IMG/VR virus record: IMGVR_UViG_3300045988_052641
Location: 1-64,000 of that record
Direction: 5' to 3' (one strand)
Origin: a virus
DNA length: 64,000 nt
Position 1 is the stretch's first letter; the number at the start of each line of letters is the position of its first letter. The notes below the pieces were generated by a model that was given only the letters and a program-made list of their open reading frames with translations, had not been told where the DNA came from and did not search any database. Below, one piece after another: positions 2,340 through 64,000 of the stretch. A program made the position numbers and the translations under genes.

Positions 2340-2710
2340 TTAAGTGCTTCGAGTTCTTTAGCCAATTCTTCCAGAGACTTACCTTCGAGTTCAGCGTCTT
2401 GTTTCTTAGCCATAAGGTCAAGAATCTTCTGACGCTTAGCTTTCTTCTCACTTTCAAGTAGACGGTCTTCCTGTTCTTGCAACTTAACATCAATAATGTG
2501 TTTTGCAATATTGAATTTCAGTTCAAGTTCGGTAGTGTCCTTAGTCCGGGTTTTGATGAAGCTTTCAGTTTTAGACTCTTGCAATTTCTTGTTAAGAGCA
2601 ATTGCAATATTGTCAAGTTGAATTAAGGGCAAATCCCACAAGTCTTCAACAGAAAGAACTCCACGTTGCGTGTTAAAACGCAATTTCATTCTAGATGCTT
2701 TCTCAAACAT
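2336..2710 (-). CDS. hypothetical coiled-coil protein
   Basis: 124 aa ORF, K/E-rich heptad-like sequence, stop/start overlap with neighbour. Confidence 0.5.
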   Translation of the reverse strand: MFEKASRMKLRFNTQRGVLSVEDLWDLPLIQLDNIAIALNKKLQESKTESFIKTRTKDTTELELKFNIAKHIIDVKLQEQEDRLLESEKKAKRQKILDLMAKKQDAELEGKSLEELAKELEALN

Positions 2711-2712
2711 AA

Positions 2713-3651
2713 TTATAGCATTAAATTGTTAATACGTTTATATTCTTCAAACACTTTGTCCTCTGATTCTTCTCCCCACATACTGTGAATGAGAACACCG
2801 TAAGCACAAGGCTGGTACACAATAGGGTCTACTGCCTTCTTAGTGATTGTAACCTCTGGATTGTTTAATTGACCAGGAGGGCAAGCTACAAATAGCTCAT
2901 TTCTACCTATCTTAACAGCATCAAAGGAAACTATGTTAGAATAGCTAAAACCCTTTACATCAGCAGGAAGACCAGGATTCTTGTTAACTATACTGGACAG
3001 CCTGAGTGTGCCTTCTATATCAGGACCAACAACTATATGATTATGTGATTCTATGTATTTCTTCAGATTGTTCAATATAGTTTTGCTGTCATTATATCCA
3101 TAGTTGATACCTGTAACATAATAATATGCTCCATTAGTACACTCCAACCCCAAATCAGAGAACATTGGTCCTTCACCATTAAGCTTGCGCTTAACTTTTA
3201 TGATTTCTCTGATGTTGCGGTCAGGAATTACTCCAGTGTATTGTTTTAGTAGACCTTTGACAAGTTTATATTTCTTACAAACTTCATCAAATTGTTTAGA
3301 GCCAACCAAAAGAGTACTCTCTCCGAACACCTCTCTTGCACGCTTTACGAAATTAAATAGGTTCTTAGCGCGCATGGCATCCAGAGCTATCTGATTATAT
3401 TCCGATATTTTAGCTTGCAATAGCCTGGCATTCTTTGAGCTACCTAGCCCAGCATCAACCAACGTGTTGTATTCTCTTACTAATGTATCTCTATTAGGAA
3501 TATCAACTGATGTCTTGGAAACAGAACGTAGATATTCCTCCATACATAAAGCAAGAGCCATAGCTATGTTGGACTGAATAGTCATCACCGGCACGTCAAC
3601 CACTTCTGGAGTTATAACTTCAGAATCATTGCGTTTTAGAAATCTAAACAT
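2713..3651 (-). CDS. paralog family protein A (shared C-terminal motif V(L/M/G)I(H/V)SxWG(E/V)ExxD)
   Basis: 312 aa; C-terminus VLIHSMWGEESEDKVFEEY matches ORFs 5668..6534 and 10559..11404; N-terminal AGLG motif also shared. Confidence 0.6.
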   Translation of the reverse strand: MFRFLKRNDSEVITPEVVDVPVMTIQSNIAMALALCMEEYLRSVSKTSVDIPNRDTLVREYNTLVDAGLGSSKNARLLQAKISEYNQIALDAMRAKNLFNFVKRAREVFGESTLLVGSKQFDEVCKKYKLVKGLLKQYTGVIPDRNIREIIKVKRKLNGEGPMFSDLGLECTNGAYYYVTGINYGYNDSKTILNNLKKYIESHNHIVVGPDIEGTLRLSSIVNKNPGLPADVKGFSYSNIVSFDAVKIGRNELFVACPPGQLNNPEVTITKKAVDPIVYQPCAYGVLIHSMWGEESEDKVFEEYKRINNLML

Positions 3652-6654: not shown

Positions 6655-7059
6655 TTATCCTATTTCGTTACTAGCATTATAAGCAAGCTTGTCGGCTTCC
6701 TTATTATGTTCATCACTTGCATGACCTTTACACCACTCAACAGACACTACTTTATGCCTGTTCACAGCCTTATCAAGACGTTCCCACAAATCAGTGTTGG
6801 CTTTCCTCTTCCACCCTTTAGTAAGAGTTCCTACAATATACATAGAATCTGTTACTATTGTAATTTCAGAAGGTTCCTTTATAGATTCCAGGGCAACTAT
6901 GGCAGCCATTTGCTCCATTCGCTGATTGGTGCTGTTCTTATACATCTTACTGTATTGGAATATCTTCTTGTCATCCTCTAAAATGACAAAGCCTATTCCC
7001 CCTTGATTTCTCGCAGGAGAATAGGCACCATCACAGTATATTCTGTACTTATGCGTCGG
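6655..7059 (-). CDS. rnhA: ribonuclease HI
   Basis: motifs YCDGA...E(QMAAIVALE)...TDSMY...EWCKGHASDEHNKEADKLA = RNase H D-E-D-H-D catalytic signature; ORF-track start (7122) overlaps upstream gene so internal Met at ~7059 preferred. Confidence 0.8.
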   Translation of the reverse strand, partial: PTHKYRIYCDGAYSPARNQGGIGFVILEDDKKIFQYSKMYKNSTNQRMEQMAAIVALESIKEPSEITIVTDSMYIVGTLTKGWKRKANTDLWERLDKAVNRHKVVSVEWCKGHASDEHNKEADKLAYNASNEIG

Positions 7060-9575: not shown

Positions 9576-9809
9576 ATACCCTTATACTGACATCATGACC
9601 TTGATTGTAACTACAATTATCATTCCTATAGTACTTATAGCAGCTATACTTAAGAATATCTTAACCCATTTAAAGTCACAATCCCATATAGTTAGTAACA
9701 TAGCTATTAATGCAGCCACAAATGCAATGACTACAGTAATCATTAATGCTGTTTCCATATCAATCTCTTACTAAGTCTATCCAATTAATTAGGATATGAT
9801 ACAACCACC

Positions 9810-14356: not shown

Positions 14357-14377
14357 GTAAAAGGAGTCCGAAGACTC

Positions 14378-15445
14378 CTAAACTAACTTATCGAATATCA
14401 TGGGTTGTATTGACATCCATAAATTCGCTAGCATTTCTTGCTCTGCGTCAGATGCTTCATCCCAATGTGATACGTACAATTTCTCCGTTCGTTCATTCCT
14501 ATAAGGAACTTTAAATGAACGGTTAATGCGTACACTGTGTGCGAATAGGTCTTTGTCGAAATCAATAGCCCTAAGCGTCTTCTGGAAATCGTTGAACTTA
14601 TTATTAGAGTCATCGACATCCCTAACAGACATTCCAGAAGGAAACGGGCCGTTACCATGCCTTGTTATATAAGGACGAGTTACATAACAAGTTTGGATTT
14701 CTTTACGTATACCTGCTTTCCGCAACAGCTCGTAAGCGTTTTGTGAAGTTGTATTAGACGGAGTACAATAAGGCATTATGCCGAATCTTTGGTCAAGCAA
14801 TATTCCCTGTGAACCTTCAAACACTAGGTTATCATAATTCAACAAGCAATCTTCATTAACCGTACCTGTATGTAAGAAATAAGCATGTGCTAACCTACAC
14901 CAGTTGTCTAGGTCTATCGAAGGATATTTACTAGACATGTTGTAATAGTTATCCACTATGGCATTTAGTTTCTCACGCAGTATGTAAGGATTCATACAAT
15001 CTACAACTGTTAAGCTGTATCCTGCCTTAACTCGGTCCAAACAAGCTTTAAACCCTGTACCTACAGTACCATGTCGTAAGTTCTCTTCGTTATTAACTTG
15101 GGAATAGACATCGAAGGGAATTACAACTTGGCAGTGAGGGTGATACTGAACAATGGGATGAACTCCCATTTTAGCTAAGTCTGCACCCTCCAACATAGAG
15201 GTAATTGGGTCTACAGTACAGTATTCGGACCAGTACGTCGGCACTCCAAGTAAGGTTCCGCTGCCAAAGTTACTAAAGGTATGCATTATGTCTCCATGCT
15301 TTACAGTATGTCCTACTTGATGTCCACCACTAAACCTGACTACTAATACAGACTCTCGCTTACCTATGTACTTGTTACATAAGTTGTGAACTGTCTGTCC
15401 CTTACCTTCGTCTCCAAAGAATGTTCCTAATACAATACTAATCAT
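14378..15445 (-). CDS. adenylosuccinate synthetase family protein, short form (PurA/PurZ-like)
   Basis: GDEGKGQ P-loop, RFSGGHQVGHTV, PYCTPSNTTSQNA, TRPYITRHGNGPFPS, HSVRINRSF conserved PurA blocks; only 355 aa, lacks TTGRxRR and the (T/N)KLD guanine-specificity motif. Confidence 0.75.
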   Translation of the reverse strand: MISIVLGTFFGDEGKGQTVHNLCNKYIGKRESVLVVRFSGGHQVGHTVKHGDIMHTFSNFGSGTLLGVPTYWSEYCTVDPITSMLEGADLAKMGVHPIVQYHPHCQVVIPFDVYSQVNNEENLRHGTVGTGFKACLDRVKAGYSLTVVDCMNPYILREKLNAIVDNYYNMSSKYPSIDLDNWCRLAHAYFLHTGTVNEDCLLNYDNLVFEGSQGILLDQRFGIMPYCTPSNTTSQNAYELLRKAGIRKEIQTCYVTRPYITRHGNGPFPSGMSVRDVDDSNNKFNDFQKTLRAIDFDKDLFAHSVRINRSFKVPYRNERTEKLYVSHWDEASDAEQEMLANLWMSIQPMIFDKLV

Positions 15446-19010: not shown

Positions 19011-19062
19011 AATTCTAATAATTAGGTTAATAATGATTTTCGCAAACTCTTATTAGCCAGCG

Positions 19063-19150
19063 CGGAGAGTGCTGGATTCGAACCAGCGGAACCCTTTTGA
19101 GGTTCGGTCCCTTAGCAGGGGACTGGTTTAAGCCACTCACCCAACTCTCC
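19063..19150 (-). tRNA. tRNA-Ser(GCT), class II
   Basis: acceptor GGAGAGT/ACTCTCC, anticodon arm GTCCC-CTGCTAA-GGGAC, long variable arm, T-arm GCTGGTTCGAATCCAGC. Confidence 0.85.
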
Positions 19151-19237
19151 AATCCACAGAAGACTTATTTATGCTATATCAATCGCTTATGATTACCTCA
19201 ATGCTGTAAGTCTTCTTAGAAATTCACTGTAAAAGGA

Positions 19238-23724: not shown

Positions 23725-23794
23725 ATCATCAGAAGGCAAATTGAACTACATGACACAGTAAAAGTGCTGATGCCTTCTTATATTACCCATTCAG

Positions 23795-24145
23795 TTATTC
23801 TAGATTAGGTAATTTTCTTGTTTCTTTCTTAAACTGTCTCCTATTATAGCGTTCTCCTTTACATATAGGACAACTACAAGGAGTACTGGTTGTTTTGTAG
23901 GCAAACGTATATTTAGAATTATATAATTCTGTCCAATGTCTACCTCTTGCCGTTTTATCTGGATTATACCAGTAGGCAGCGTGGAGTTTAATCCTAGTAA
24001 TATACTTCTGGTCTTTCTTTAGGTTCCTCCACCTTTTGTTTCTTTGGATTAGTGAATCCTTCAGTCTCTCCGTTCTTAGTTCTTCCATCGTCTCTATCAT
24101 TAGTGTTAATAATGTCTTGAGACGGGTTGTAGCCGGTTCCAACAA
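23795..24145 (-). CDS. hypothetical Cys-containing small protein (CSCPIC zinc-ribbon-like)
   Basis: 116 aa ORF. Confidence 0.4.
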   Translation of the reverse strand: MLEPATTRLKTLLTLMIETMEELRTERLKDSLIQRNKRWRNLKKDQKYITRIKLHAAYWYNPDKTARGRHWTELYNSKYTFAYKTTSTPCSCPICKGERYNRRQFKKETRKLPNLE

Positions 24146-24991: not shown

Positions 24992-25105
24992 ATCAATTTT
25001 AGATTGTGGAATCTTTAAAGATGTAATACAGTACTACTAGCACTATAGCTCCCACAATGTAAGCACCAAAACTATGCATAATCTTATAATTTAATGTTAA
25101 TAATG

Positions 25106-25180
25106 CGGGAAGGGCGAGACTCAAACTCGCTATCTTCGGCTTAACAGGCCGCAGCTGTATACCACTTAAGCTTCCTTCCC
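25106..25180 (-). tRNA. tRNA-Asn(GTT)
   Basis: acceptor GGGAAGG/CCTTCCC, anticodon loop CTGTTAA, T-arm GCGAGTTTGAGTCTCGC. Confidence 0.8.
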
Positions 25181-25535
25181 AAATGTTTAATTGACCTATC
25201 CCGATTGCATCGGAGTTAATCCCTATGGTAAGGAACTACTCCTGTTGGATACCACGTGTAGCTATCAGCTGACACTTTGAAATACCAACGAACTGCTTTC
25301 TTAATTAACTTAAATAGTCTCATAATACATCAGTTTTAGTCAATAAATAAATAATCTAGCTCATCGCTAAACAGCAACCAAAGCAAAATACTAGCAACAA
25401 TAATACTCCAGTGAATGGATTAAATTGATGTTGAGCTATACAAGCAACTGTTCCTATAACAGAACCAATTACTAACAATACTCCAATAATCTTACTCATA
25501 AATGTATCTGATTTTAAATTAATAATCTAAATAAA

Positions 25536-25561
25536 CCACTCTATCTTCACAGACTGAGTGG
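25536..25561. repeat. conserved stem-loop element, copy a (ACCACTC-TATCTTCACAGACT-GAGTGGT)
   Basis: member of 4-copy hairpin family with conserved 14-nt loop and covarying stems. Confidence 0.6.
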
Positions 25562-25604
25562 TCAAACTCGTTCTTTGACATCATGTACAATCTTAGTACA
25601 TATG

Positions 25605-25676
25605 TGATTCCGCAGGGACTTGAACCCTGTTCTATAGATTAAAAGTCTATAGCATATCCATACATGCTCCGGAATC
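25605..25676 (-). tRNA. tRNA-Lys(TTT)
   Basis: acceptor GATTCCG/CGGAATC, anticodon arm ATAGA-CTTTTAA-TCTAT, T-arm CAGGGTTCAAGTCCCTG. Confidence 0.85.
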
Positions 25677-25759
25677 ATCCGCAGAAGGCGCGTTATCAAA
25701 AACATGTAAACTGTACAATGATTAGTGCTGTACGCCTTCTTATGTTTCACTAAATCGAG

Positions 25760-25831
25760 AGTGGGCTGACGGAATCGAACCGTCCTAACCGCTTTTGCAG
25801 AGCGGCCCCTAAACCTCTCGGGTAAGCCCAC
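25760..25831 (-). tRNA. tRNA-Cys(GCA)
   Basis: acceptor GTGGGCT/AGCCCAC, anticodon arm CCGCT-CTGCAAA-AGCGG, T-arm GACGGTTCGATTCCGTC. Confidence 0.8.
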
Positions 25832-25962
25832 ATATCAATACGACTTATGGGCTTAACTATGAAACAGGTTAATCAAATCATAAATTAAAAGTTGTTGGGT
25901 TGATTTGATGATTGTTTAGTGAAACTATATATTATTGTGTTAATTATGGTTCTTATTAAAAC

Positions 25963-25988
25963 TACTCTATTCTCACGAACTGAGTAGT
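25963..25988. repeat. conserved stem-loop element, copy b (CTACTC-TATTCTCACGAACT-GAGTAG)
   Basis: compensatory C>T / G>A stem changes relative to copy a. Confidence 0.6.
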
Positions 25989-26044
25989 TGTCCATATTTG
26001 CTATTATGGGATTATCAGCATCCTCTCTTGGATGCCACGGGGAG

Positions 26045-26117
26045 TATGGGTAGCCAGACTCGAACTGGCGACAACTAGGTCCCAAACCTAGCATTCTACC
26101 TACTGAATTACACCCAT
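26045..26117 (-). tRNA. tRNA-Pro(TGG)
   Basis: anticodon arm CTAGG-TTTGGGA-CCTAG, D-arm ATTCAGTAGGTAGAAT, T-arm GCCAGTTCGAGTCTGGC. Confidence 0.75.
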
Positions 26118-26219
26118 AACTACAGAAGTCTCTTAGTTTAATTAAAATCATAAAATATGAAACACTTTCTTTCGTGCTGTAAGACTTCTTATTCAAAGCT
26201 ATTGAAAATTGTTGTATTG

Positions 26220-26286
26220 TGGGTGTACTTGAACCAAGGACTTACACGTTATCAGCGTGTTACTCTACCACCTGAGTTATACACCC
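26220..26286 (-). tRNA. tRNA-Ile(GAT)-like with truncated T-arm (possible pseudogene, ~67 nt)
   Basis: canonical acceptor GGGTGTA/TACACCC, D-arm ACTCAGGTGGTAGAGT and anticodon arm ACACG-CTGATAA-CGTGT, but 3' strand of T-stem is absent. Confidence 0.45.
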
Positions 26287-26386
26287 ATCATCAGAAGACA
26301 ATAGATTCATTTACTTATGCCAACATACAGGAAATTGCTGTTTGTCTTCTTAGCATTCTGAAAATGCAAATGTACAATGATTGTAG

Positions 26387-26453
26387 TTGCGGTCGGACGA
26401 TTCGAACGTCGTCTCTTATGAGCCCAGTAAGCTACCATTGCTCCACCACCGCA
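26387..26453 (-). tRNA. initiator-like tRNA(CAT) with unpaired anticodon stem (possible pseudogene, ~67 nt)
   Basis: GGTAGCTTACTGGGCTCATAA resembles bacterial tRNA-fMet anticodon region, T-arm GACGTTCGAATCGTC present, but 3' anticodon-stem strand does not pair and variable loop is missing. Confidence 0.4.
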
Positions 26454-26455
26454 AG

Positions 26456-26527
26456 TGCCCCATGTTGGACTCGAACCAACGCCATACAAGTTTAGAATTT
26501 GCTCTTCTACCACTGAAGTAATGGGGC
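26456..26527 (-). tRNA. suppressor-type tRNA, anticodon CTA (reads UAG amber)
   Basis: perfect acceptor GCCCCAT/ATGGGGC, D-arm CTTCAGTGGTAGAAG, anticodon arm GCAAA-TTCTAAA-CTTGT (U33, A37), T-arm GTTGGTTCGAGTCCAAC. Confidence 0.6.
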
Positions 26528-26653
26528 GACAGAGGGTTTTACGAGATTACCCACAACTCATCAACTATTCGATAATTTGATTCCACTGTTCAAGTGTAAG
26601 TTCCTTGACTACTATGCCATTTAGTTCAAATGGAGTATATTGGTTTCGCATAA

Positions 26654-26950
26654 TCATTTCCCTTTAATTTGTTTACACATGTTAATAAACTCATCATCCG
26701 ATTCACATATAATCGGATTCGTTTCCTTGAGATACATCTCCAGATAGGCTTCTTTAGACAAATCGTCCACGTCATCCGGATACACACCATGTACATCATA
26801 TGACATATGAGAACCCCAGCAACTAAGCCAATCAGCATCCTCAAATGTAGTACATATACACACACTTAACCCAGCATCCTCTAGTTTCTTACGAAGTTCT
26901 GGAGTATTCTTCTTAATAAGACAGTGTTCACTCATGGATTTAATACACAT
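26654..26950 (-). CDS. hypothetical protein
   Basis: 98 aa ORF. Confidence 0.45.
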   Translation of the reverse strand: MCIKSMSEHCLIKKNTPELRKKLEDAGLSVCICTTFEDADWLSCWGSHMSYDVHGVYPDDVDDLSKEAYLEMYLKETNPIICESDDEFINMCKQIKGK

Positions 26951-27156
26951 AAACCACCTTTCTCGGAATCTCTAAGCACGTACTTAGTACCTGGAATACC
27001 AGGTCCTGATACCTTATAAATGGTTAGTTCGTTAATAAATTCATACTGCACTCTGTTGATTTTATAATCTCCATTAGTAGCAGCAGACTCATTGATTGAT
27101 GCTTTACTTGTGGTTGCAAATAATGCCAAGAAGGTAAATACTCCACATAATCTCAT
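26932..27156 (-). CDS. small secreted protein
   Basis: 74 aa, N-terminal signal-peptide-like MRLCGVFTFLALFATTSKA. Confidence 0.45.
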   Translation of the reverse strand: MRLCGVFTFLALFATTSKASINESAATNGDYKINRVQYEFINELTIYKVSGPGIPGTKYVLRDSEKGGLCVLNP

Positions 27157-27171
27157 CTATTATTAATAATG

Positions 27172-27243
27172 AGCGGGATAACAGAATTGAACTGTCATCT
27201 TCAGCTTGGAAGGCTGTTATAATAACCATTATACGAATCCCGC
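27172..27243 (-). tRNA. tRNA-Gly(TCC)
   Basis: acceptor GCGGGAT/ATCCCGC, anticodon loop CTTCCAA, T-arm GACAGTTCAATTCTGTT. Confidence 0.75.
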
Positions 27244-27249
27244 AGTTTA

Positions 27250-27277
27250 CTTCTACTATTCTCTCGAACCATAGAAG
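27250..27277. repeat. conserved stem-loop element, copy c (CTTCTA-cTATTCTCTCGAACCa-TAGAAG)
   Basis: same loop consensus as copies a,b,d. Confidence 0.6.
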
Positions 27278-27330
27278 GGTTTGTCGAGTTTGACCTCAAC
27301 AGATATTGTATTTAATTATCGCAGTGTGAG

Positions 27331-27414
27331 TGGGCCCGGGAGGACTCGAACCTCCAGTCCAATTAAGGAGTAGATTTACAGTCTACGCGGCTACCAATTA
27401 CCGGTTACGTGCCC
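27331..27414 (-). tRNA. tRNA-Tyr(GTA), class II
   Basis: anticodon arm GTAGA-CTGTAAA-TCTAC, long variable arm, T-arm GGAGGTTCGAGTCCTCC; one A-G mismatch in acceptor. Confidence 0.8.
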
Positions 27415-27525
27415 GAATCACACAATCCATATTAACTGTGAATTGTGAGTGCAAAGGTAATGAATCTTCCCCACATGTAAAAGTTAATATGTATTAAATA
27501 CGATAGAAGTTTGCTCGGTATTAAA

Positions 27526-27561
27526 CTAAGCTCACATATTCTCTCGAACCGATGAGCTTAG
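27526..27561. repeat. conserved stem-loop element, copy d (CTAAGCTCA-caTATTCTCTCGAACCga-TGAGCTTAG)
   Basis: 9-bp perfect stem, same loop core TATTCTCTCGAACC as copy c. Confidence 0.6.
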
Positions 27562-27664
27562 TAGTTATTCAACAATTGCAGATACTTTAACTCGTAATAA
27601 TGACTATGAGTCGAGATAGAAATGACACTGCATATGTTGAAAGAATCATATTAATAAAATGGTG

Positions 27665-27901: not shown

Positions 27902-29596
27902 TTAGGCCTTCACAGGCTTCTTCTGCACGCTTGCATTCTTCTTGACAACATCCTTCTCTAGAATCATCATATTAAGCAACTCTTGATTCATAGCATGCTT
28001 AAAAATGTCTCTGGTGGTTTTAGGCACCTGGAACCTCTTCTCTCCAGTAATAAATGAGGATGTTGAATTATTAAGTCCATTTACTAAGAAGCAATTTGAC
28101 ACTCCTGGAACCAAAGCTACATTAGGTCTTCCTTTATATGCTAAAGGAACTCTCCAAATAATAACTTTGAACGCCCTTACAAATTCCTTACTGAAATTTG
28201 CTTTAAGCAATCTCTGCTTAAATTCCACGAATGCTTGGTTGTTCAACTTGGTAAAATATGTATGGTTAGTAATTACCACACAACCTCTAGGGAACTCTCC
28301 TTCATCTACACCATAATCTTCTTTCATCTTACACAGCATTTCTGCTATATTAACAATAGAAGGATTCTGGCATAATGCTTCTTCTTTGTCAGATTTCCAT
28401 TTCTCAATGACATTCTGACCTTTGAACTTACGTAGAACCATGTTATCTTCTAACACGGCATAGGAGTTTTTGAATATTGTAGGAAGTAGTTCAGAGTGAT
28501 ATAAAGCATATACTTTACCCAAACTGTAAGCAGATGTTTCGCTATTCTCTATCTCACCATTAGCAGAATGGCTTATATCTCTTACTACCAACAACGGAGC
28601 TACTCTATTGCGTTTAGCATTATCAACGAATACGTTGAAACTTGCATTAATAGAAGTTTCCATAAATTCTGGAATCTCTTCGGCAATTTTATCCAGTCCA
28701 TATGGTTTGAATAAAGTATGTAGAAATCCGCTATTAGAGGGCTTCTTACGGTTCTTCAACCAGTTCTGATACTTCTCTTTAAGACCTTGATGTTTGAGGA
28801 ATTTAGAGCCTACTAGCTGTGCCAGCGCCTTTCCAGTAACAGTGTCAAAATCAATTTCCAAGAATTTCTTTTGACTGATTAACTGCTGCCATTGGGCTGC
28901 TTTCCCGCTATTCTTCATCTTCCTATATTTACGATAGGTGGAATAGTCTCCTTCGTCCTTAGGTTTACCATAAAGGCCTTCCGCCAAGAATTTGGCTACT
29001 GTGTTACGTGCTTTTGCCTCATCTGTCTTACATGCAACACTGGAACGAACACGGGGAAGATACTTCTTTACTAAATCACATGTCTGACCATTAGCAAGAC
29101 CTGCAAATATGACTTTCTTGAAGAAGTCCCAATCCAATCTGTGCTTAAAGCCATGGAGTTGAACATCTAAAGCCATCATAGTAATGAAATCTTTCCAGCA
29201 TCCAGCTGCTGCAAAATAAGCAATGTTGGCATGGAATGTGGGTTTGTGATAGATTGCCAACCACAGCATCCTCATTATACCTTCATTTTTCAAACCTTCT
29301 CCTTGCTGTGTATCAAGCTGTATAACTCCTTCCGGGGTAGTTATTCTACATTTACGAGTTATCATCCTCGTATATGCAGTAAACTTGGTACATAGTAATG
29401 GATTAGCTTTCCATAAAGGATACATATCTTTAGTCACTTGCACGTAGGTACGTGGCTGAAGACATTTCTTAAGATTAACAAACTGGTCTATGAATAACTG
29501 ATTATTATCCACAAACTTAGGTTTATTCTCATCCCGCCTTTGACGTGCGGCATTAGGGTAAGGCCTCCTTGGCCTTTGTGCTCCTTTCATTTCCAT
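27902..29596 (-). CDS. large hypothetical protein (564 aa, basic N-terminus)
   Basis: long ORF, RPRRPYPNAARQRRDENKPK N-terminal basic tract. Confidence 0.55.
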   Translation of the reverse strand: MEMKGAQRPRRPYPNAARQRRDENKPKFVDNNQLFIDQFVNLKKCLQPRTYVQVTKDMYPLWKANPLLCTKFTAYTRMITRKCRITTPEGVIQLDTQQGEGLKNEGIMRMLWLAIYHKPTFHANIAYFAAAGCWKDFITMMALDVQLHGFKHRLDWDFFKKVIFAGLANGQTCDLVKKYLPRVRSSVACKTDEAKARNTVAKFLAEGLYGKPKDEGDYSTYRKYRKMKNSGKAAQWQQLISQKKFLEIDFDTVTGKALAQLVGSKFLKHQGLKEKYQNWLKNRKKPSNSGFLHTLFKPYGLDKIAEEIPEFMETSINASFNVFVDNAKRNRVAPLLVVRDISHSANGEIENSETSAYSLGKVYALYHSELLPTIFKNSYAVLEDNMVLRKFKGQNVIEKWKSDKEEALCQNPSIVNIAEMLCKMKEDYGVDEGEFPRGCVVITNHTYFTKLNNQAFVEFKQRLLKANFSKEFVRAFKVIIWRVPLAYKGRPNVALVPGVSNCFLVNGLNNSTSSFITGEKRFQVPKTTRDIFKHAMNQELLNMMILEKDVVKKNASVQKKPVKA

Positions 29597-29898
29597 CTCT
29601 TGTTAAATTTATTGTTATGAGAGTCTTTCTTTATTCTAAACAATAAACAAGCGGCATTACGGCAATCGGACATACGTTAACCCGCTCGCCACTTACAGAC
29701 CGTAATGCACACTTGACCAGGCAGGAAAGAGGTTTGCTTGGTGACCTATCTGCATGCTGATTATATAATACAGACCGTGTAGATTCTCTCTTATACACAA
29801 TATCTATAGTAGATTTGCACTACTGTTTCCTGATGCTTAATCAGGTGAACTCCTACTGTTCGAATAGATACAGGTTTCAACTCTTTGATATAGCCTTT

Positions 29899-29920
29899 AA
29901 GTCATAGACATACTCCGGAG
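29899..29920. promoter_or_regulatory. 22-bp perfect palindrome AGACATACTCCGGAGTATGTCT
   Basis: read directly; lies in a 380-nt non-coding gap downstream of ORF 29977..30672. Confidence 0.5.
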
Positions 29921-29976
29921 TATGTCTACTGGTTCTTCAGACCAAGTTTTGCTACCACCATTCGTCAATAGTGGAT

Positions 29977-31824: not shown

Positions 31825-31852
31825 AAAATTGATATTTAAACGTTAATAATAG

Positions 31853-32453
31853 TGGACCTAGAGGGATTCGAACCCTCGTCCAGACAACTCTCATTAATAA
31901 GATTACGTGTGTCTCTATTTTATTACATCAGCTGTTGAGTTCAGCATGTAGGTAGTTTTACTAAGAAGCTGAGTGTTAATTCACCAATTACGTCTCCTCG
32001 TAAGGCTACGACTTAGTTGTTCACAAACTACCAAACTGGGCTTGACCGAACGGTCGCTCCACCACTCCATTTACGTTGGAGAACGGATGATATTTCAGAG
32101 ATTCGTCACACCTCATGGACCACATCTTCCATCTGCTTTATGACATTAGGAGATTTCAGCTTTACTAACCTTTGGCTTTCAAGTTAATGCATCTAAGCTT
32201 CACTGTAACCTTGCAGGTACTATGACTCTTCCCCGCAGGCCTCGTTATAGCACTTAGATACAAACCTCTTCTGTTTCTAGGTCTCTCCGTTAACCCGACT
32301 TAGAGCTAAATTAATAGATAAGCCAGCAGCTTAGGCTGCCATTCTGTTGTAGTCGATTTCAGCAACTATTGTTTGTATCATTATTAAAGAGTTGGTACGA
32401 ACTCTACACGTCTTACTAACTTGTAATCGCCTGTCAAAGCCAAATCTAGGCCC
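31853..32453 (-). ncRNA. ssrA: tmRNA (ssrA-like), ~600 nt, tag peptide AEIDYNRMAA
   Basis: 5' GGGCCTAGATTTGGCTTTGACAGG matches tmRNA 5' consensus (GGGGCUGAUUCUGGAUUCGACGGG); acceptor GGGCCTA/TAGGTCC with G3-U70; resume context AATAGTT-GCT at nt 91 followed by GCT GAA ATC GAC TAC AAC AGA ATG GCA GCC TAA; 3' end GGACGAGGGTTCGAATCCCTC-TAGGTCC-A mirrors E. coli GGACGGGGGUUCAAAUCCCCC-CGGCUCC-A. Confidence 0.7.
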
Positions 32454-35928: not shown

Positions 35929-35956
35929 GAGGTTTTAATCGTTATTACTCAAATTT

Positions 35957-36060
35957 CCCCACAAATTGCGTCAATCAGAGCATCTGTGAAATCGTCTTCG
36001 ATGTAGTTCCCCACAAATTGCGTCAATCAGAGCATCTGTGAAATCGTCTTCGATGTAGTC
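35957..36060. repeat. 52-bp perfect tandem direct repeat x2
   Basis: CCCCACAAATTGCGTCAATCAGAGCATCTGTGAAATCGTCTTCGATGTAGTT occurs twice back to back; overlaps a small minus-strand ORF start (MDYIEDDFTDALIDAICGE...) and shifts its frame. Confidence 0.9.
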
Positions 36061-36460
36061 CATAAATATATAGTATTATTGTCAACTCAAACAAAAGGTG
36101 AGTATGCATATCTATCACAGACCTACATACTCTTAATAATATTCATTTTACACATTCAAACGGTCTGAACTACGTACTTTAGTACTTTATATCTCGTCCC
36201 ACTCCAAGTGGAGATTTGTTCAAGCAAATAATAGCCTACTGCTTCCTCAAACAGAGGATTTGTCAGTTTATACATTATACCATTATTTGCATGAATTGCA
36301 TCGTTCCGATTACGTCCAAATACAGTTCTTAGTTTTGATTTCTTCGCTTTCATTTCACTACTCGGCTAACTACATACTAATAAATATATTTGAATAAGCA
36401 TAATAAAAAGAAAGACACAAATAGACTTTCTAAATGTGCCTTTCAATAAGAAGTACTTTG

Positions 36461-62914: not shown

Positions 62915-64000
62915 ATGAGCCAGTTGGACTACTTGTGGACAACATATGGCCCATATACGGTGTCGGACTCAATAGACGTTGAAGACTCTATTCCTTCTTC
63001 TAAAGCTATCAAAGATGCTATTGCTACTCAGGTAACTGGTATAGTAGAACTCGATACTCAAGAAGAAGGTAATAAGGTTAGAGTTATAGGTAAAGGAGGA
63101 AGTGGTGAGGAAATATCATCAATCCTTCTTGATAAAGATACTAAGATAGTTTCGTTTGAAAGACATCTTATAACACAAGAGGATATAGATAACGGATTCG
63201 GTAATGCACTGAATGAGGAATGGCTGATACTTACTGCTTCTAATGGAGATAGATTTGAAGTGTCTCTGGAAGACTTTGTAGTTAAAGGACAAATAACTAA
63301 TACTATTATTACCCAGACTAAGAATGGTAATATTGCATCAGAGTTAAAGATTAATAATCCAATTACTAATAGGTCTGTAGATTTATTAGCTTCAAACTTT
63401 GGAGTTAGGGCAGACTTAGTAGTTGATACTGATGCTGATTCTAACATAGTTATTACTAAGGGTGATAAAGGAGTTGTTTGTAAATTTAGTTGGGAAGGTA
63501 CAGAATATCCAGTAAGAATTAAAGCCGTAGATACTTACGATGAGTATTTACTACAGACTTTAGAACCTAATACTATTTACTTCATAAAGGACATTAAGTC
63601 TATTTATCTTAATGGAGTTAAATATGCCTCTGAAGGTGGTGGAGGTTTAGACCCTGACTTGTATTATACTAAATCAGAAACTGATGCTCTTATATCTAAT
63701 ATCGAAAGCGACTTAGACAATAAAGTCAGTCTGGTTGACGGTAATATAGTATTAGAGGAAGGTCAAGGAATTGTGGTTAATCGTAGGGACGGTGTTCAGA
63801 ATTTAATATCGTCTGACAACTCCGGAGGATTTAAGCTCGGTAATGTTAATTCTTATCTGGAGATATATACTAACACAAGACCAGCCGTTGTAGTAGGGGA
63901 AGACACCGATTCACTTGCATTAATGTCAGACTTGACTTCTTATACTTGGAATGAAGTGACTACTGCTAAAGCTACTAGACTCGCTGATTTACCAGAGAGT
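62915..64000 (+). CDS. structural (fiber-like) protein, 5' partial within window
   Basis: ATG at 62915 opens a frame with no stop to the window end (MSQLDYLWTTYGPYTV...); not listed in the ORF track because it is unterminated. Confidence 0.5.
   Translation, partial: MSQLDYLWTTYGPYTVSDSIDVEDSIPSSKAIKDAIATQVTGIVELDTQEEGNKVRVIGKGGSGEEISSILLDKDTKIVSFERHLITQEDIDNGFGNALNEEWLILTASNGDRFEVSLEDFVVKGQITNTIITQTKNGNIASELKINNPITNRSVDLLASNFGVRADLVVDTDADSNIVITKGDKGVVCKFSWEGTEYPVRIKAVDTYDEYLLQTLEPNTIYFIKDIKSIYLNGVKYASEGGGGLDPDLYYTKSETDALISNIESDLDNKVSLVDGNIVLEEGQGIVVNRRDGVQNLISSDNSGGFKLGNVNSYLEIYTNTRPAVVVGEDTDSLALMSDLTSYTWNEVTTAKATRLADLPES

What the first reader, a model, noticed from the sequence alone, without database searches (positions are those of the whole stretch)
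25536..27561. Family of four stem-loops with a conserved 14-nt loop and compensatory stem changes in the tRNA island
Hairpins at 25536-25561, 25963-25988, 27250-27277 and 27526-27561 share the loop consensus TAT(T/C)(C/T)TC(T/A)C(G/A)(A/G)AC(C/T). On the transcribed minus strand this reads GGUUCGAGAGAAUA.

The stems differ completely between copies but stay paired. ACCACTC/GAGTGGT versus AACTACTC/GAGTAGTT shows C>T matched by G>A, which is classic covariation for a functional RNA structure.

They sit between tRNA genes. Candidate roles are tRNA-precursor processing sites, phage-specific terminators or antiterminators, or protein-binding operators. There is no U-tract, so they are not standard intrinsic terminators.
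Basis: seen in the sequence. Interest (0 to 1): 0.55.

Follow-up and report, generated by a model that had tools for sequence, protein, structure and literature searches.

The report
Conserved GNGA-tipped hairpin of Bacteroidota phages
The four stem-loops are real copies of a widespread, uncatalogued RNA hairpin of crAss-like and other Bacteroidota phages that sits at gene boundaries, often a few bases before a tRNA, and probably marks and protects RNA ends.

Summary
Four hairpins, plus a fifth at 36101-36131 and a weak sixth at 19028-19055, lie on the transcribed minus strand. A structural descriptor finds 5 hits, against 0.05 expected in shuffled sequence.

The "14-nt loop" is not a loop. 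It folds into an R•A mismatch, a 4-bp helix closed by an invariant G·U, and a GNGA tetraloop. The H1 variant GUCU/AGAU is a compensatory swap of GUUC/GAAU.

The motif is far from unique to this window. I collected 151 non-redundant copies from about 45 unrelated groups of viral loci, including cultured ΦcrAss001. Each has a different lower stem under the same apex. No Rfam 15 family matches it.

Wobble pairs on the sense strand outnumber A·C mismatches 103 to 9, so it works as RNA. It is intergenic.
- 30% of copies end 0-13 nt (mode 4) before a tRNA or a truncated tRNA-like element, against 1.3% of random positions.
- Half of the remaining copies carry a U-tract instead.

Best reading, at moderate confidence: a boundary hairpin that ends up 3'-terminal, either by termination or by RNase P cutting the adjoining tRNA. 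The conserved apex would be a recognition site for an unknown factor. No expression data were available to me.

The parts
25534..25563 (-). H1: GACCACUC-A-GUCU-GUGA-AGAU-A-GAGUGGUU. It lies 40 nt after tRNA-Lys and 35 nt before the ATG of a 47-aa ORF (25499). The tail is UAUUUAGA.
   Evidence: -15.8 kcal/mol, z -3.6; 36.0 bits
25960..25989 (-). H2: AACUACUC-A-GUUC-GUGA-GAAU-A-GAGUAGUU. It lies 54 nt after tRNA-Pro and about 128 nt before tRNA-Cys. The 5' mismatch base is A or C among near-identical relatives.
   Evidence: z -3.8; 39.0 bits
27249..27278 (-). H3: CUUCUAU-G-GUUC-GAGA-GAAU-A-GUAGAAG (paired part 27250-27277). It ends 6 nt (UAAACU) before the 5' end of tRNA-Gly and starts 52 nt after tRNA-Tyr.
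   Evidence: 37.4 bits; the hairpin and the cloverleaf fold independently
27525..27562 (-). H4: an 11-bp lower stem ACUAAGCUCAU/GUGAGCUUAGU, a 2x2 internal loop CG/AU, then GUUC-GAGA-GAAU. It lies 101 nt after tRNA-Leu(caa) and 110 nt before tRNA-Tyr.
   Evidence: -17.7 kcal/mol, z -4.1; 26.5 bits
36101..36131 (-). H6, a fifth member outside the tRNA island: AGUAUGUA-G-GUCU-GUGAU-AGAU-A-UGCAUACU. It starts 25 nt after the stop of a 65-aa ORF. It is followed by CACCUUUUGUUUG and lies 38 nt before the next ATG.
   Evidence: 20.2 bits, E 0.002; 22.4 bits; z -3.3
19028..19055 (-). H5, a weak or divergent candidate: UAAUAA-GA-GUUU-GCGA-AAAU-CA-UUAUUA, 6 nt after tRNA-Ser(gct). Relatives carry GCGA or GUGA in the loop.
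   Evidence: 14.2 bits, E 0.4; one search shows it is thermodynamically weak (z -0.7)
27171..27243 (-). tRNA-Gly(ucc). Its 5' end, the expected RNase P cleavage site, lies 6 nt downstream of H3.

Best explanation
These are copies of a widespread RNA hairpin motif of Bacteroidota phages. The window itself is a distant crAss-like phage.

Structure. Each copy is transcribed with the minus-strand gene and tRNA array. It folds into a freely variable 6-11-bp lower stem capped by a conserved apex: Y-G top pair, R•A mismatch, invariant G·U, three covarying pairs and a GNGA tetraloop.

Proposed function. It acts as a boundary ('punctuation') hairpin that ends up at the 3' end of the upstream RNA and shields that end from 3' exonucleases. 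The 3' end can form in two interchangeable ways:
(a) intrinsic termination, when a U-run follows;
(b) RNase P cleavage of a tRNA or truncated tRNA-like element placed 0-13 nt downstream. This leaves a tail too short for exonucleases to engage.

In the window, H3 is the RNase-P-coupled type (6 nt before tRNA-Gly). H6 follows an ORF and has a U-run. H1, H2 and H4 sit in inter-tRNA spacers with only short, A-interrupted U-runs.

The apex is sequence-conserved across unrelated phages, which points to a recognition site for an unidentified trans-acting factor, more likely one not encoded next to it.

Shown: the structure, strand, distribution and context statistics. Inferred: the 3'-end formation, the protection and the factor.
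For: Structure and covariation:
- In 114 distinct copies, every lower-stem position uses all four Watson-Crick pair types.
- The upper helix covaries (UA/CG/AU, UA/CG, CG/UA), while the G·U pair is 114/114.
- Orthologous copies with identical flanks show compensatory A-U to G-C changes (CUUAAC/GUUAAG against CUUAGU/GCUAAG; GGUCAAA/UUUGACC against GGUCAGA/UCUGACC).
- Polymorphisms among 99%-identical relatives fall only on the free positions.

RNA on the sense strand:
- An unbiased census of lower-stem positions 1-7 gives WC 702, G·U 103, A·C 9.
- All significant window copies are on the gene strand.

Distribution:
- 151 non-redundant copies from 89 loci. The hairpin-bearing viral loci fall into about 45 groups.
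- 94 of 119 loci hit by GGTTCGTGAGAATA are true hairpins.
- ΦcrAss001 has one at 1879-1908, 6 nt before tRNA-Glu.
- Copies in bacterial genome records are rare and mostly from Bacteroidales.

Boundary position:
- 6% lie inside same-strand ORFs, against 53% of random positions.
- In the U-tract class, 20 of 51 lie within 60 nt after a stop codon.

Coupling to tRNA 5' ends:
- Of 46 copies with a downstream same-strand tRNA in the locus, 26 lie within 15 nt and only 1 at 16-60 nt.
- 45 of 151 are followed within 0-13 nt by a tRNA or tRNA-like element, against 1.3% of random positions (p 5e-47).
- 13 of these elements are only 44-67 nt long, too short for a full cloverleaf, and by eye lack a normal anticodon arm.

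Complementarity of the two routes to a 3' end: a U-tract occurs in 6 of 45 tRNA-adjacent copies and in 53 of 106 others (Fisher p 2e-5).

General architecture of the window:
- Many tRNAs have some stable hairpin ending 0-13 nt upstream. One is a UUCG hairpin that overlaps the purA-like ORF's stop codon, 5 nt before tRNA-Gln.
- 24 of 26 tRNA genes lack an encoded CCA. Their trailers are therefore probably removed by an endonuclease, so a trailer hairpin need not block maturation (plus established RNase Z biology).
- A few unpaired leader nucleotides are always left. This fits the finding that sequestering the leader blocks RNase P (PMC7897497, seen).
Against: - I had no RNA-end or expression data. 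Termination, RNase P cleavage and stabilisation are all inferred.
- End protection alone does not explain why the apex sequence is conserved, and no binding partner was found. No protein family recurs next to the hairpin.
- About a third of copies have neither a detectable tRNA-like neighbour nor a U-tract (53 of 151). By my criteria this includes H1, H2 and H4 of the window.
- Inside tRNA arrays the 'upstream RNA' is only another tRNA's trailer, so the benefit of protecting it is unclear.
- Some copies sit just downstream of promoter-like GT-rich or TAnnTTTG sequence. There the hairpin would be a 5'-terminal leader, not a 3' end.
- Sampling is biased. Copies were harvested around two exact 14-mer seeds and with a descriptor that requires pairing.
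Confidence: 0.4

Rival explanations
1. Plain intrinsic terminators or attenuators. The hairpins stop or throttle host RNA polymerase between units. The conserved apex only reflects selection for a fast-folding, extra-stable tip, like the C(UUCG)G hairpins of T4. The position next to tRNAs is incidental, because terminators sit at the ends of units.
For: - 39% of copies have at least 5 of 8 U directly after the stem, and positions +1 to +4 are about 60% U.
- Many copies look textbook, with a GC-rich stem, U6-9 and then an RBS and ATG.
- 20 of 51 in the U class lie within 60 nt after a stop codon.
- H6 is followed by UUUUGUUU.
Against: - tRNA-adjacent copies mostly lack a U-tract (39 of 45). A terminator 2-4 nt before a tRNA leaves no room for a promoter.
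- Stability does not explain the invariant G·U, the R•A mismatch (which destabilises the stem), GNGA to the exclusion of GNAA, or the 3' AUAG.
- Window copies H1-H4 have only weak U-runs.
- The simple terminator scan does not call any of them.
Confidence: 0.2
2. The hairpin itself is the product. It would be a small RNA of roughly 35-90 nt, released by RNase P at the adjoining tRNA or tRNA-like 'handle' (or ended by its own U-tract). Upstream it would be released by RNase Z or begin at a promoter. Its conserved apex would bind or titrate a host or phage protein, as a decoy or aptamer.
For: - It explains the apex conservation over freely varying stems, the tight spacing to tRNA 5' ends, the truncated tRNA-likes that appear useless for translation, and the multiple copies per genome. 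L267 has 7 copies in 2.2 kb.
- In one contig group a conserved GT-rich, promoter-like block directly precedes hairpin + tRNA-like units. That would make the hairpin a short primary-transcript leader.
Against: - No partner was identified and no small RNA has been observed.
- Many copies sit directly after ORFs, where they would be mRNA 3' ends rather than free sRNAs.
- ΦcrAss001 has a single copy.
Confidence: 0.15
3. A 5'-leader element acting on the downstream gene. It might tune or delay RNase P processing, insulate tRNA folding from upstream sequence, or serve as a site for a double-strand-specific RNase, like the T7 RNase III sites that separate cistrons.
For: - The spacing to the downstream tRNA is much tighter (mode 4 nt) than the spacing to the upstream tRNA (19-57 nt in most cases).
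- Copies lie 21-37 nt before many ATGs.
- Leader structure is known to control RNase P (PMC7897497).
- Other hairpin types occupy the same position before other tRNAs in the window.
Against: - Most phage tRNAs lack the element. Only 1 of 25 in ΦcrAss001 and 1 of about 29 in the window have this motif directly upstream.
- About 70% of copies have no tRNA neighbour.
- The helix is only 12-16 bp with a mismatch, which is short for RNase III.
Confidence: 0.1
4. A hairpin promoter for a phage RNA polymerase, analogous to the DNA-hairpin promoters of N4 virion RNAP. Transcription would start just 3' of the hairpin.
For: - Variable stem with a conserved 'loop', and genes that start immediately downstream (tRNA at 2-13 nt, ATG at 21-37 nt).
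- crAss-like phages carry their own RNA polymerases (annotation).
Against: - G·U outnumbers A·C by 103 to 9, so the template strand could not form the stem.
- The upper helix covaries as RNA.
- Half of the non-tRNA copies are followed by terminator-type U-runs.
- There is only one copy in ΦcrAss001.
- The distance from the apex to the tRNA start is not fixed, at 9-21 nt.
Confidence: 0.04
5. A DNA-level element: a recombination or cassette boundary (like PeSL or attC), or the target of a homing endonuclease.
For: - The tRNA island is indel-rich among 97-99%-identical relatives.
- One replacement starts about 11 nt after H1.
Against: - The other indel boundaries (27415-27418, 26647-26651, 26076-26081, 25104-25179) do not coincide with hairpins.
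- The strand asymmetry of wobble pairs points to RNA.
- No recombinase or nuclease gene recurs nearby.
Confidence: 0.03

Closest known systems
Intrinsic (Rho-independent) terminators and the extra-stable tetraloop hairpins of phage intercistronic regions, e.g. C(UUCG)G hairpins of T4 (own knowledge: Tuerk et al. 1988)
   Same: Intergenic hairpin on the sense strand, capped by a stable tetraloop. It is often followed by a U-run, sits after stop codons, and is expected to define and protect RNA 3' ends.
   Different: - The conserved region extends well beyond the tetraloop: a 4-bp helix, an invariant G·U, an R•A mismatch and a 3' AUAG.
- Most tRNA-adjacent copies and the window copies lack a proper U-tract.
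- The family is shared across unrelated phages but is rare in host genomes.
RNase-P-dependent 3'-end formation at a tRNA-like element: MALAT1/MENβ-mascRNA, the mitochondrial tRNA punctuation model, and MHV68 tRNA-miRNA (TMER) units (own knowledge)
   Same: A tRNA or truncated tRNA-like structure directly abuts a protective or functional upstream structure. The tRNA-processing enzyme would create the end of the neighbouring RNA.
   Different: - Those systems are eukaryotic, organellar or herpesviral.
- In MALAT1 the protective element is a triple helix, not a GNGA hairpin.
- Cleavage has not been shown here.
- In TMERs the hairpins lie 3' of the tRNA-like part and are released by RNase Z.
Protein-binding hairpins with variable stems and a conserved apex: λ/P22 boxB-N (GNRA-like loop) and iron-responsive elements (own knowledge)
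   Same: The conservation pattern matches: only the apex and an internal irregularity are conserved, and the stems covary freely. The loop is a GNRA-type fold.
   Different: - boxB has a 5-bp stem and a pentaloop, occurs once or twice per genome next to boxA, and serves antitermination.
- Here there is no known partner and no boxA was examined.
- There are several copies per genome, and they are associated with tRNAs.
T7 RNase III processing sites (own knowledge: Dunn & Studier 1983)
   Same: Intercistronic hairpins with an internal irregularity that punctuate a polycistronic phage transcript and leave a stabilising 3' hairpin.
   Different: T7 sites are roughly 20 bp or longer. These are 12-16 bp. 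A conserved GNGA tip is not a known RNase III determinant.
N4 virion-RNAP hairpin promoters (own knowledge)
   Same: Variable stem, conserved loop bases, and genes that start directly downstream.
   Different: N4 hairpins form on the template DNA strand and have 3-nt loops. Here the pairing is selected on the sense strand with G·U pairs, and the apex is a helix plus tetraloop.

Membership tests
Intrinsic terminator | Stable, uninterrupted GC-containing hairpin | tested here: met
   MFE is -11.6 to -17.7 kcal/mol, with z-scores from -1.85 to -4.1. The stem is, however, interrupted by a conserved 1x1 mismatch.
Intrinsic terminator | U-tract (roughly at least 5 U in 8) immediately 3' of the stem | tested here: inconclusive
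   Window copies have 2-5 U in the first 8 nt, and the simple terminator scan does not call them. In the family, 59 of 151 meet the criterion: 53 of 106 non-tRNA copies but only 6 of 45 tRNA-adjacent ones.
Intrinsic terminator | Causes transcript release by RNA polymerase | not testable with these tools
   This needs in vitro transcription or Term-seq.
tRNA T-arm / tRNA fragment (suggested by GGUUCGA) | 7-nt UUCRANY loop closed by a 5-bp stem, with UUCRA conserved | tested here: not met
   The segment folds as a 4-bp helix plus tetraloop. 21 of 151 copies have GUCU/AGAU and others GCCU, GCCC or GUGU, all lacking UUCGA while keeping the pairing. The Rfam tRNA model does not hit the hairpins.
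Any Rfam 15 family | Match to a curated covariance model | tested here: not met
   There is no hit on the hairpins at gathering score, and none up to E=10 in a 2.1-kb search.
N4-type hairpin promoter | Hairpin forms on the template DNA strand, with a short (3-nt) loop | tested here: not met
   Sense-strand G·U 103 against A·C 9. The apex is a helix plus GNGA tetraloop.
λ-type nut site (boxA + boxB) | 5-bp stem with a GNRA-like pentaloop, an adjacent boxA, and an N-type antiterminator | not tested
   Only the GNRA-type loop is shared. The stem architecture differs. I did not search for boxA or for an N homologue.
RNase III processing site | About two turns (roughly 20 bp or more) of dsRNA | tested here: not met
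   The total helix is 12-16 bp including a mismatch. Lower stems are 5-13 bp, mode 8.
Repetitive mobile DNA (REP/MITE) or CRISPR repeat | Copies share their whole sequence; CRISPR repeats also have regular spacing | tested here: not met
   Lower stems are unrelated between copies. Spacing is irregular. Only 14-16 nt are shared.
Sarcin-ricin loop mimic | Invariant GAGA loop and an asymmetric bulged-G motif (AGUA/GAA) | tested here: not met
   The loop is GUGA in 102 and GAGA in 33 of 151 copies. The flanks are symmetric and covary as Watson-Crick pairs.

The most novel reading that the evidence does not exclude
Hairpin + tRNA (or truncated tRNA-like) units are a phage RNA-end-forming or small-RNA-excision system. 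Host RNase P cuts at the tRNA-like 'handle' and releases a GNGA-tipped hairpin RNA, either free or as the 3' cap of the upstream RNA. The conserved apex then recruits or titrates a specific host or phage protein. This would be a bacterial-virus counterpart of MALAT1-mascRNA or TMER processing, shared by crAss-like and other Bacteroidota phages.
Probability: 0.22. Interest if true: 0.8.

Novelty: new variant of a known kind. Interest (0 to 1): 0.55.

Why it matters
crAss-like phages are among the most abundant viruses of the human gut, yet almost nothing is known about how their transcripts and large tRNA arrays are punctuated and processed.

This is a compact, sequence-defined RNA element shared by dozens of unrelated Bacteroidota phage lineages. 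Neither Rfam 15 nor the searched literature contains it. It gives a concrete handle on that problem.

It also flags truncated tRNA-like elements that appear to exist only as neighbours of the hairpin. That hints at RNase-P-driven end formation in phages.

One copy sits in cultured ΦcrAss001, 6 nt before tRNA-Glu, so the idea can be tested directly. If the apex binds a host factor, it would be a new phage-host RNA interface. If the element proves to be only a specialised terminator, it still improves annotation of operon boundaries in these genomes.

Tried and rejected
- Megablast of the region against GenBank phages found no match. Relatives had to be found through proteins and DNA patterns.
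- Rfam at gathering and at E up to 10 gave nothing on the hairpins.
- T-loop mimicry, suggested by GGUUCGA, was rejected. Covariation supports a helix, and the GUCU variants lack the motif.
- Sarcin-ricin loop mimicry was rejected (GUGA predominates; the flanks are symmetric and paired).
- σ70-type promoter hits that overlap H1 and H3 (TTGACC...TAGAGT, TCGACA...GAGAAT) score 9 of 12, in a scan that finds 20 sites against 13.9 expected. By my own knowledge Bacteroidota do not use this consensus. I treated them as chance.
- The Bacteroidota -7 box TAnnTTTG is about 3-fold enriched within 72 nt upstream but shows no fixed spacing. It is not a defining feature.
- Hairpins as indel or recombination boundaries: only the replacement after H1 fits.
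- A conserved neighbouring protein: all-against-all BLAST of ORFs from 136 hairpin-bearing and 102 hairpin-free viral loci found no family present in more than 5 of about 45 positive groups.
- The adjacent 564-aa ORF (phrog_850 'RNA-binding protein', weak DUF2828, possibly Ro60/TROVE-like) was considered as a partner. I found no evidence linking it to the hairpins.
- The hit at 25825-25853(-), 18.8 bits with model R1 and 12.0 with R2, overlaps the 5' acceptor strand of tRNA-Cys and lacks a GNRA loop. The hit at 63364-63391(+) lacks a GNRA loop. Neither is counted as a member.
- Literature searches for the motif sequences and for crAss-like hairpin, terminator or promoter elements returned nothing relevant.


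Full report
WHAT IS THERE

The window is phage DNA of about 37% GC.
- Between 1 and about 48 kb, the long ORFs are almost all on the minus strand and the credible tRNA genes all are. ARAGORN finds 27 tRNAs and Rfam adds three more.
- It also carries a tmRNA and a RAGATH-34 RNA.
- The large terminase is 28-30% identical to Crassvirales terminases and 99.5% identical to an unannotated human-faecal phage, MT835470.1. This is therefore a distant crAss-like phage of Bacteroidota.

Folded as minus-strand RNA, the supposed 14-nt loop is not a loop. It consists of:
- a 1x1 purine•A mismatch;
- a 4-bp helix, G·U/U-A/U-A/C-G;
- a GNGA tetraloop (GUGA or GAGA).

H1 carries GUCU/AGAU where the others have GUUC/GAAU, which is a compensatory swap inside the 'loop'.

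IS IT MORE THAN CHANCE?

The degenerate 14-mer alone is not significant. It gives 4 hits against 1.7 expected.

The full architecture is significant.
- A descriptor scan gives 5 minus-strand hits and no plus-strand hits. In 200 dinucleotide shuffles the mean is 0.05 and the maximum 2.
- Covariance models recover the four copies at E from 1e-7 to 1e-4.
- They add a fifth copy at 36101-36131(-), which lies between two ORFs and is followed by a U-run.
- They also add a weak sixth at 19028-19055(-), 6 nt after tRNA-Ser.

THE FAMILY

- With the GUGA form, 94 of 119 loci are true hairpins.
- Altogether I collected 151 non-redundant hairpins from 89 loci.
- By shared proteins, the 136 hairpin-bearing viral loci collapse into about 45 unrelated groups.
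- Cultured ΦcrAss001 has one clear copy at 1879-1908 (36.8 bits).
- In 185,579 species genomes the 16-mer is at or below my rough chance estimate. Only 8 of the 86 matching loci hold true hairpins. Half of these are in Prevotella, Bacteroides, Bacteroidales and Porphyromonas records, and several others look like mis-binned phage contigs.
- Rfam 15 has no matching family, and the literature library does not contain the sequences.

Conservation pattern:
- Lower stem: 5-13 bp (mode 8). Every position uses all four Watson-Crick pair types.
- Top pair of the lower stem: C-G (57) or U·G (42), so the 3' G is conserved.
- 5' mismatch base: G 120, A 12, C 11, U 8. The 3' mismatch base is A in 133.
- The G·U pair is invariant.
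- The three inner pairs covary (GUUC/GAAU 100, GUCU/AGAU 21, and also GUUC/GGAU, GUUU/AAAU, GCCU/AGGU, GCCC/GGGU).
- Loop: GUGA 102, GAGA 33, GCGA 11, GGGA 3, and essentially never GNAA.

The harvest was seeded on two exact apexes and filtered for pairing, so the paired fractions are partly built in. The non-seed apex variants come from co-resident copies and are informative.

Two further lines of evidence are independent of that bias.
- Orthologous hairpins with identical flanks show A-U to G-C double changes.
- Polymorphisms among 97-99%-identical relatives of this phage fall only on free positions: the 5' mismatch base, loop N and the terminal pair.

RNA OR DNA, AND WHICH STRAND?

I selected instances by apex plus at least 4 of 6 Watson-Crick pairs, so that G·U and A·C were treated alike. 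Lower-stem positions 1-7 then contain 702 WC, 103 G·U and 9 A·C pairs.

Pairing is therefore selected on the sense strand only. This fits RNA. It argues against a template-strand DNA hairpin or a double-stranded palindrome.

CONTEXT

The hairpins are intergenic. Only 6% lie inside same-strand ORFs, against 53% of random positions.

The strongest regularity is downstream.
- Of 46 copies with a same-strand tRNA further on in the locus, 26 end within 15 nt of its 5' end (mode 4 nt) and only one lies at 16-60 nt. The upstream tRNA is typically 19-57 nt away.
- With a simple detector for a T-arm plus acceptor closure, 45 of 151 copies are followed within 0-13 nt by a tRNA or tRNA-like element. The rate at random positions in the same loci is 1.3% (p 5e-47).
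- Thirteen of these elements are only 44-67 nt long. By eye they keep an acceptor stem and T-arm but have no normal anticodon arm. One scores 26.4 bits, just under the Rfam tRNA threshold.
- The remaining copies split evenly. 53 have a U-tract (at least 5 of 8 U), often 12-60 nt after a stop codon and 20-40 nt before the next ATG. 53 have neither feature.
- U-tracts and tRNA adjacency are nearly exclusive: 6 of 45 against 53 of 106 (p 2e-5).

In the window:
- H3 ends 6 nt before tRNA-Gly, and the hairpin and cloverleaf fold independently.
- H6 follows an ORF and has a U-run.
- H1, H2 and H4 sit in inter-tRNA spacers, followed by UUA(A/U)UA-type short U-runs.
- Other hairpin types occupy the same position, 0-13 nt upstream, before many other tRNAs of the island. 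Examples are a UUCG hairpin that overlaps the stop codon of the purA-like ORF, 5 nt before tRNA-Gln, and a second family (AAGAAG...ACAGCA...CUUCUG) before five tRNAs.
- 24 of 26 tRNA genes lack an encoded CCA. By established biology this implies endonucleolytic (RNase Z-type) 3' processing.

HOW IT MOST LIKELY WORKS

One outcome is common to the two main contexts. An RNA is predicted whose 3' end lies a few nucleotides after this hairpin. That end is made either by termination at a U-run or by RNase P cutting the adjoining tRNA or tRNA-like element. A tail of 2-13 nt is short for 3' exonucleases to engage (established enzymology; inference here).

I therefore read the element as a boundary hairpin that defines and protects 3' ends. 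The truncated tRNA-likes would serve as processing handles.

The unpaired spacer that is always present fits the need of RNase P for an accessible leader (PMC7897497).

This reading does not explain the sequence-conserved apex. The pattern (free stems, fixed apex with G·U, mismatch and GNGA) is that of a protein-recognised hairpin such as boxB or an IRE, so a trans-acting factor is likely. No candidate gene recurs within the fetched loci, so the factor may be host-encoded or encoded elsewhere in the phage genome.

Rivals:
- plain terminators or attenuators;
- the hairpin as an excised small RNA or decoy;
- a leader element that tunes RNase P or insulates folding;
- a hairpin promoter (disfavoured by the wobble asymmetry and the U-runs);
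- a DNA recombination site (only one of several indel boundaries fits).

All functional steps are inferred. I had no RNA-end data.

COMPARISON AND NOVELTY

It behaves like terminator or stability hairpins and like the processing punctuation of T7 and T4.
- It fails the defining U-tract test in the window copies and in most tRNA-adjacent copies.
- It fails the length expectation for RNase III sites.
- It fails the strand test for N4-type promoters.
- It matches no Rfam family.
- The pairing with tRNA-like handles resembles MALAT1-mascRNA or TMER logic, but only by analogy.

I class it as a new variant of a known kind: a new, widespread hairpin family with an unusual link to tRNA 5' ends.

It is worth following up because it is abundant in gut phages and can be tested in ΦcrAss001. 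The mechanism remains open.

Noticed in passing
window 19151-19230, 23725-23800, 25677-25745, 26118-26195, 26287-26350 (minus strand): A second family of tRNA-leader hairpins. It has a conserved stem AAGAAG(N)C.../...G(N)CUUCUG enclosing a loop of about 45 nt that starts with ACAGCA. It ends 4-6 nt before tRNA-Ser(gct), Arg(tct), Lys, Pro and the tRNA at 26220-26286.
   Followed up: partly
window 14362-14379 (minus strand): A UUCG-tetraloop hairpin (AGGAGUCUUCGGACUCCU) followed by UUUAC. It overlaps the stop codon of the 355-aa purA-like ORF and ends 5 nt before tRNA-Gln. The layout is the same 'hairpin, then tRNA' arrangement, built with a different hairpin.
   Followed up: partly
window 27902-29596 (-) and 29867-29974 (-): A 564-aa ORF matches phrog_850 'RNA-binding protein' and, weakly, DUF2828, so it may be Ro60/TROVE-like. 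A strong RAGATH-34 RNA (120.8 bits) lies about 270 nt upstream of it. ΦcrAss001 also has a TROVE protein (gp96), next to a 900-bp stretch with no annotated gene. This could be a Ro/Y-RNA-like pair.
   Followed up: partly
window 31850-32453 (-): A phage-encoded tmRNA. The Rfam match is 84.1 bits over the full-length model. ARAGORN did not report it.
   Followed up: no
window 26455-26527 (-): A tRNA with anticodon CUA, which ARAGORN calls 'Pyl'. It is an amber-suppressor-type tRNA and suggests TAG read-through or recoding, as in some crAss-like phages.
   Followed up: no
window 25106-25180, 26220-26286, 26388-26452 (-); 19047-19123 (+): Rfam finds three tRNAs that ARAGORN missed. The plus-strand 'tRNA-Arg' called by ARAGORN overlaps tRNA-Ser on the other strand and is probably spurious.
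   Followed up: no
window 35955-36059: A perfect 52-bp tandem duplication (2.0 copies, 100% match) just downstream of hairpin H6. It overlaps a short 30-aa ORF.
   Followed up: no
L060 6721-6778; L088 about 2575-2625 and 2700-2755 (-); L226 about 9604-9647; L314 about 6892-6935: Truncated tRNA-like elements of 44-67 nt, with an acceptor stem and T-arm but no normal anticodon arm. They lie directly after members of the hairpin family in unrelated phages, and ARAGORN does not call them.
   Followed up: partly
L060 2877-2960 and 6245-6326: A near-threshold RAGATH-12 match (72 bits against a gathering score of 75) and a sub-threshold twister-P1 match (36 bits) lie upstream of an array of five hairpins in another gut phage. 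This is a ribozyme-associated RNA neighbourhood.
   Followed up: no
window 25104-25179, 25358-25515, 26076-26081, 26388-26449, 26647-26651, 27146-27152, 27415-27418: The tRNA island is a hotspot of insertions and replacements among relatives that are 97-99% identical elsewhere. Examples are about 900 bp extra at 26647-26651 and about 415 bp extra at 27415-27418 in L120. The 47-aa ORF at 25356-25499 is replaced in some strains.
   Followed up: partly
L222, L224, L271, L303, L094, L086, L110 (upstream flanks of hairpins): A conserved GT-rich block (for example GUUUUAUUUUGUGUUUGUGUU) directly precedes hairpin + tRNA(-like) units in one group of contigs. It may be a promoter, or the U-rich end of the preceding unit.
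   Followed up: no
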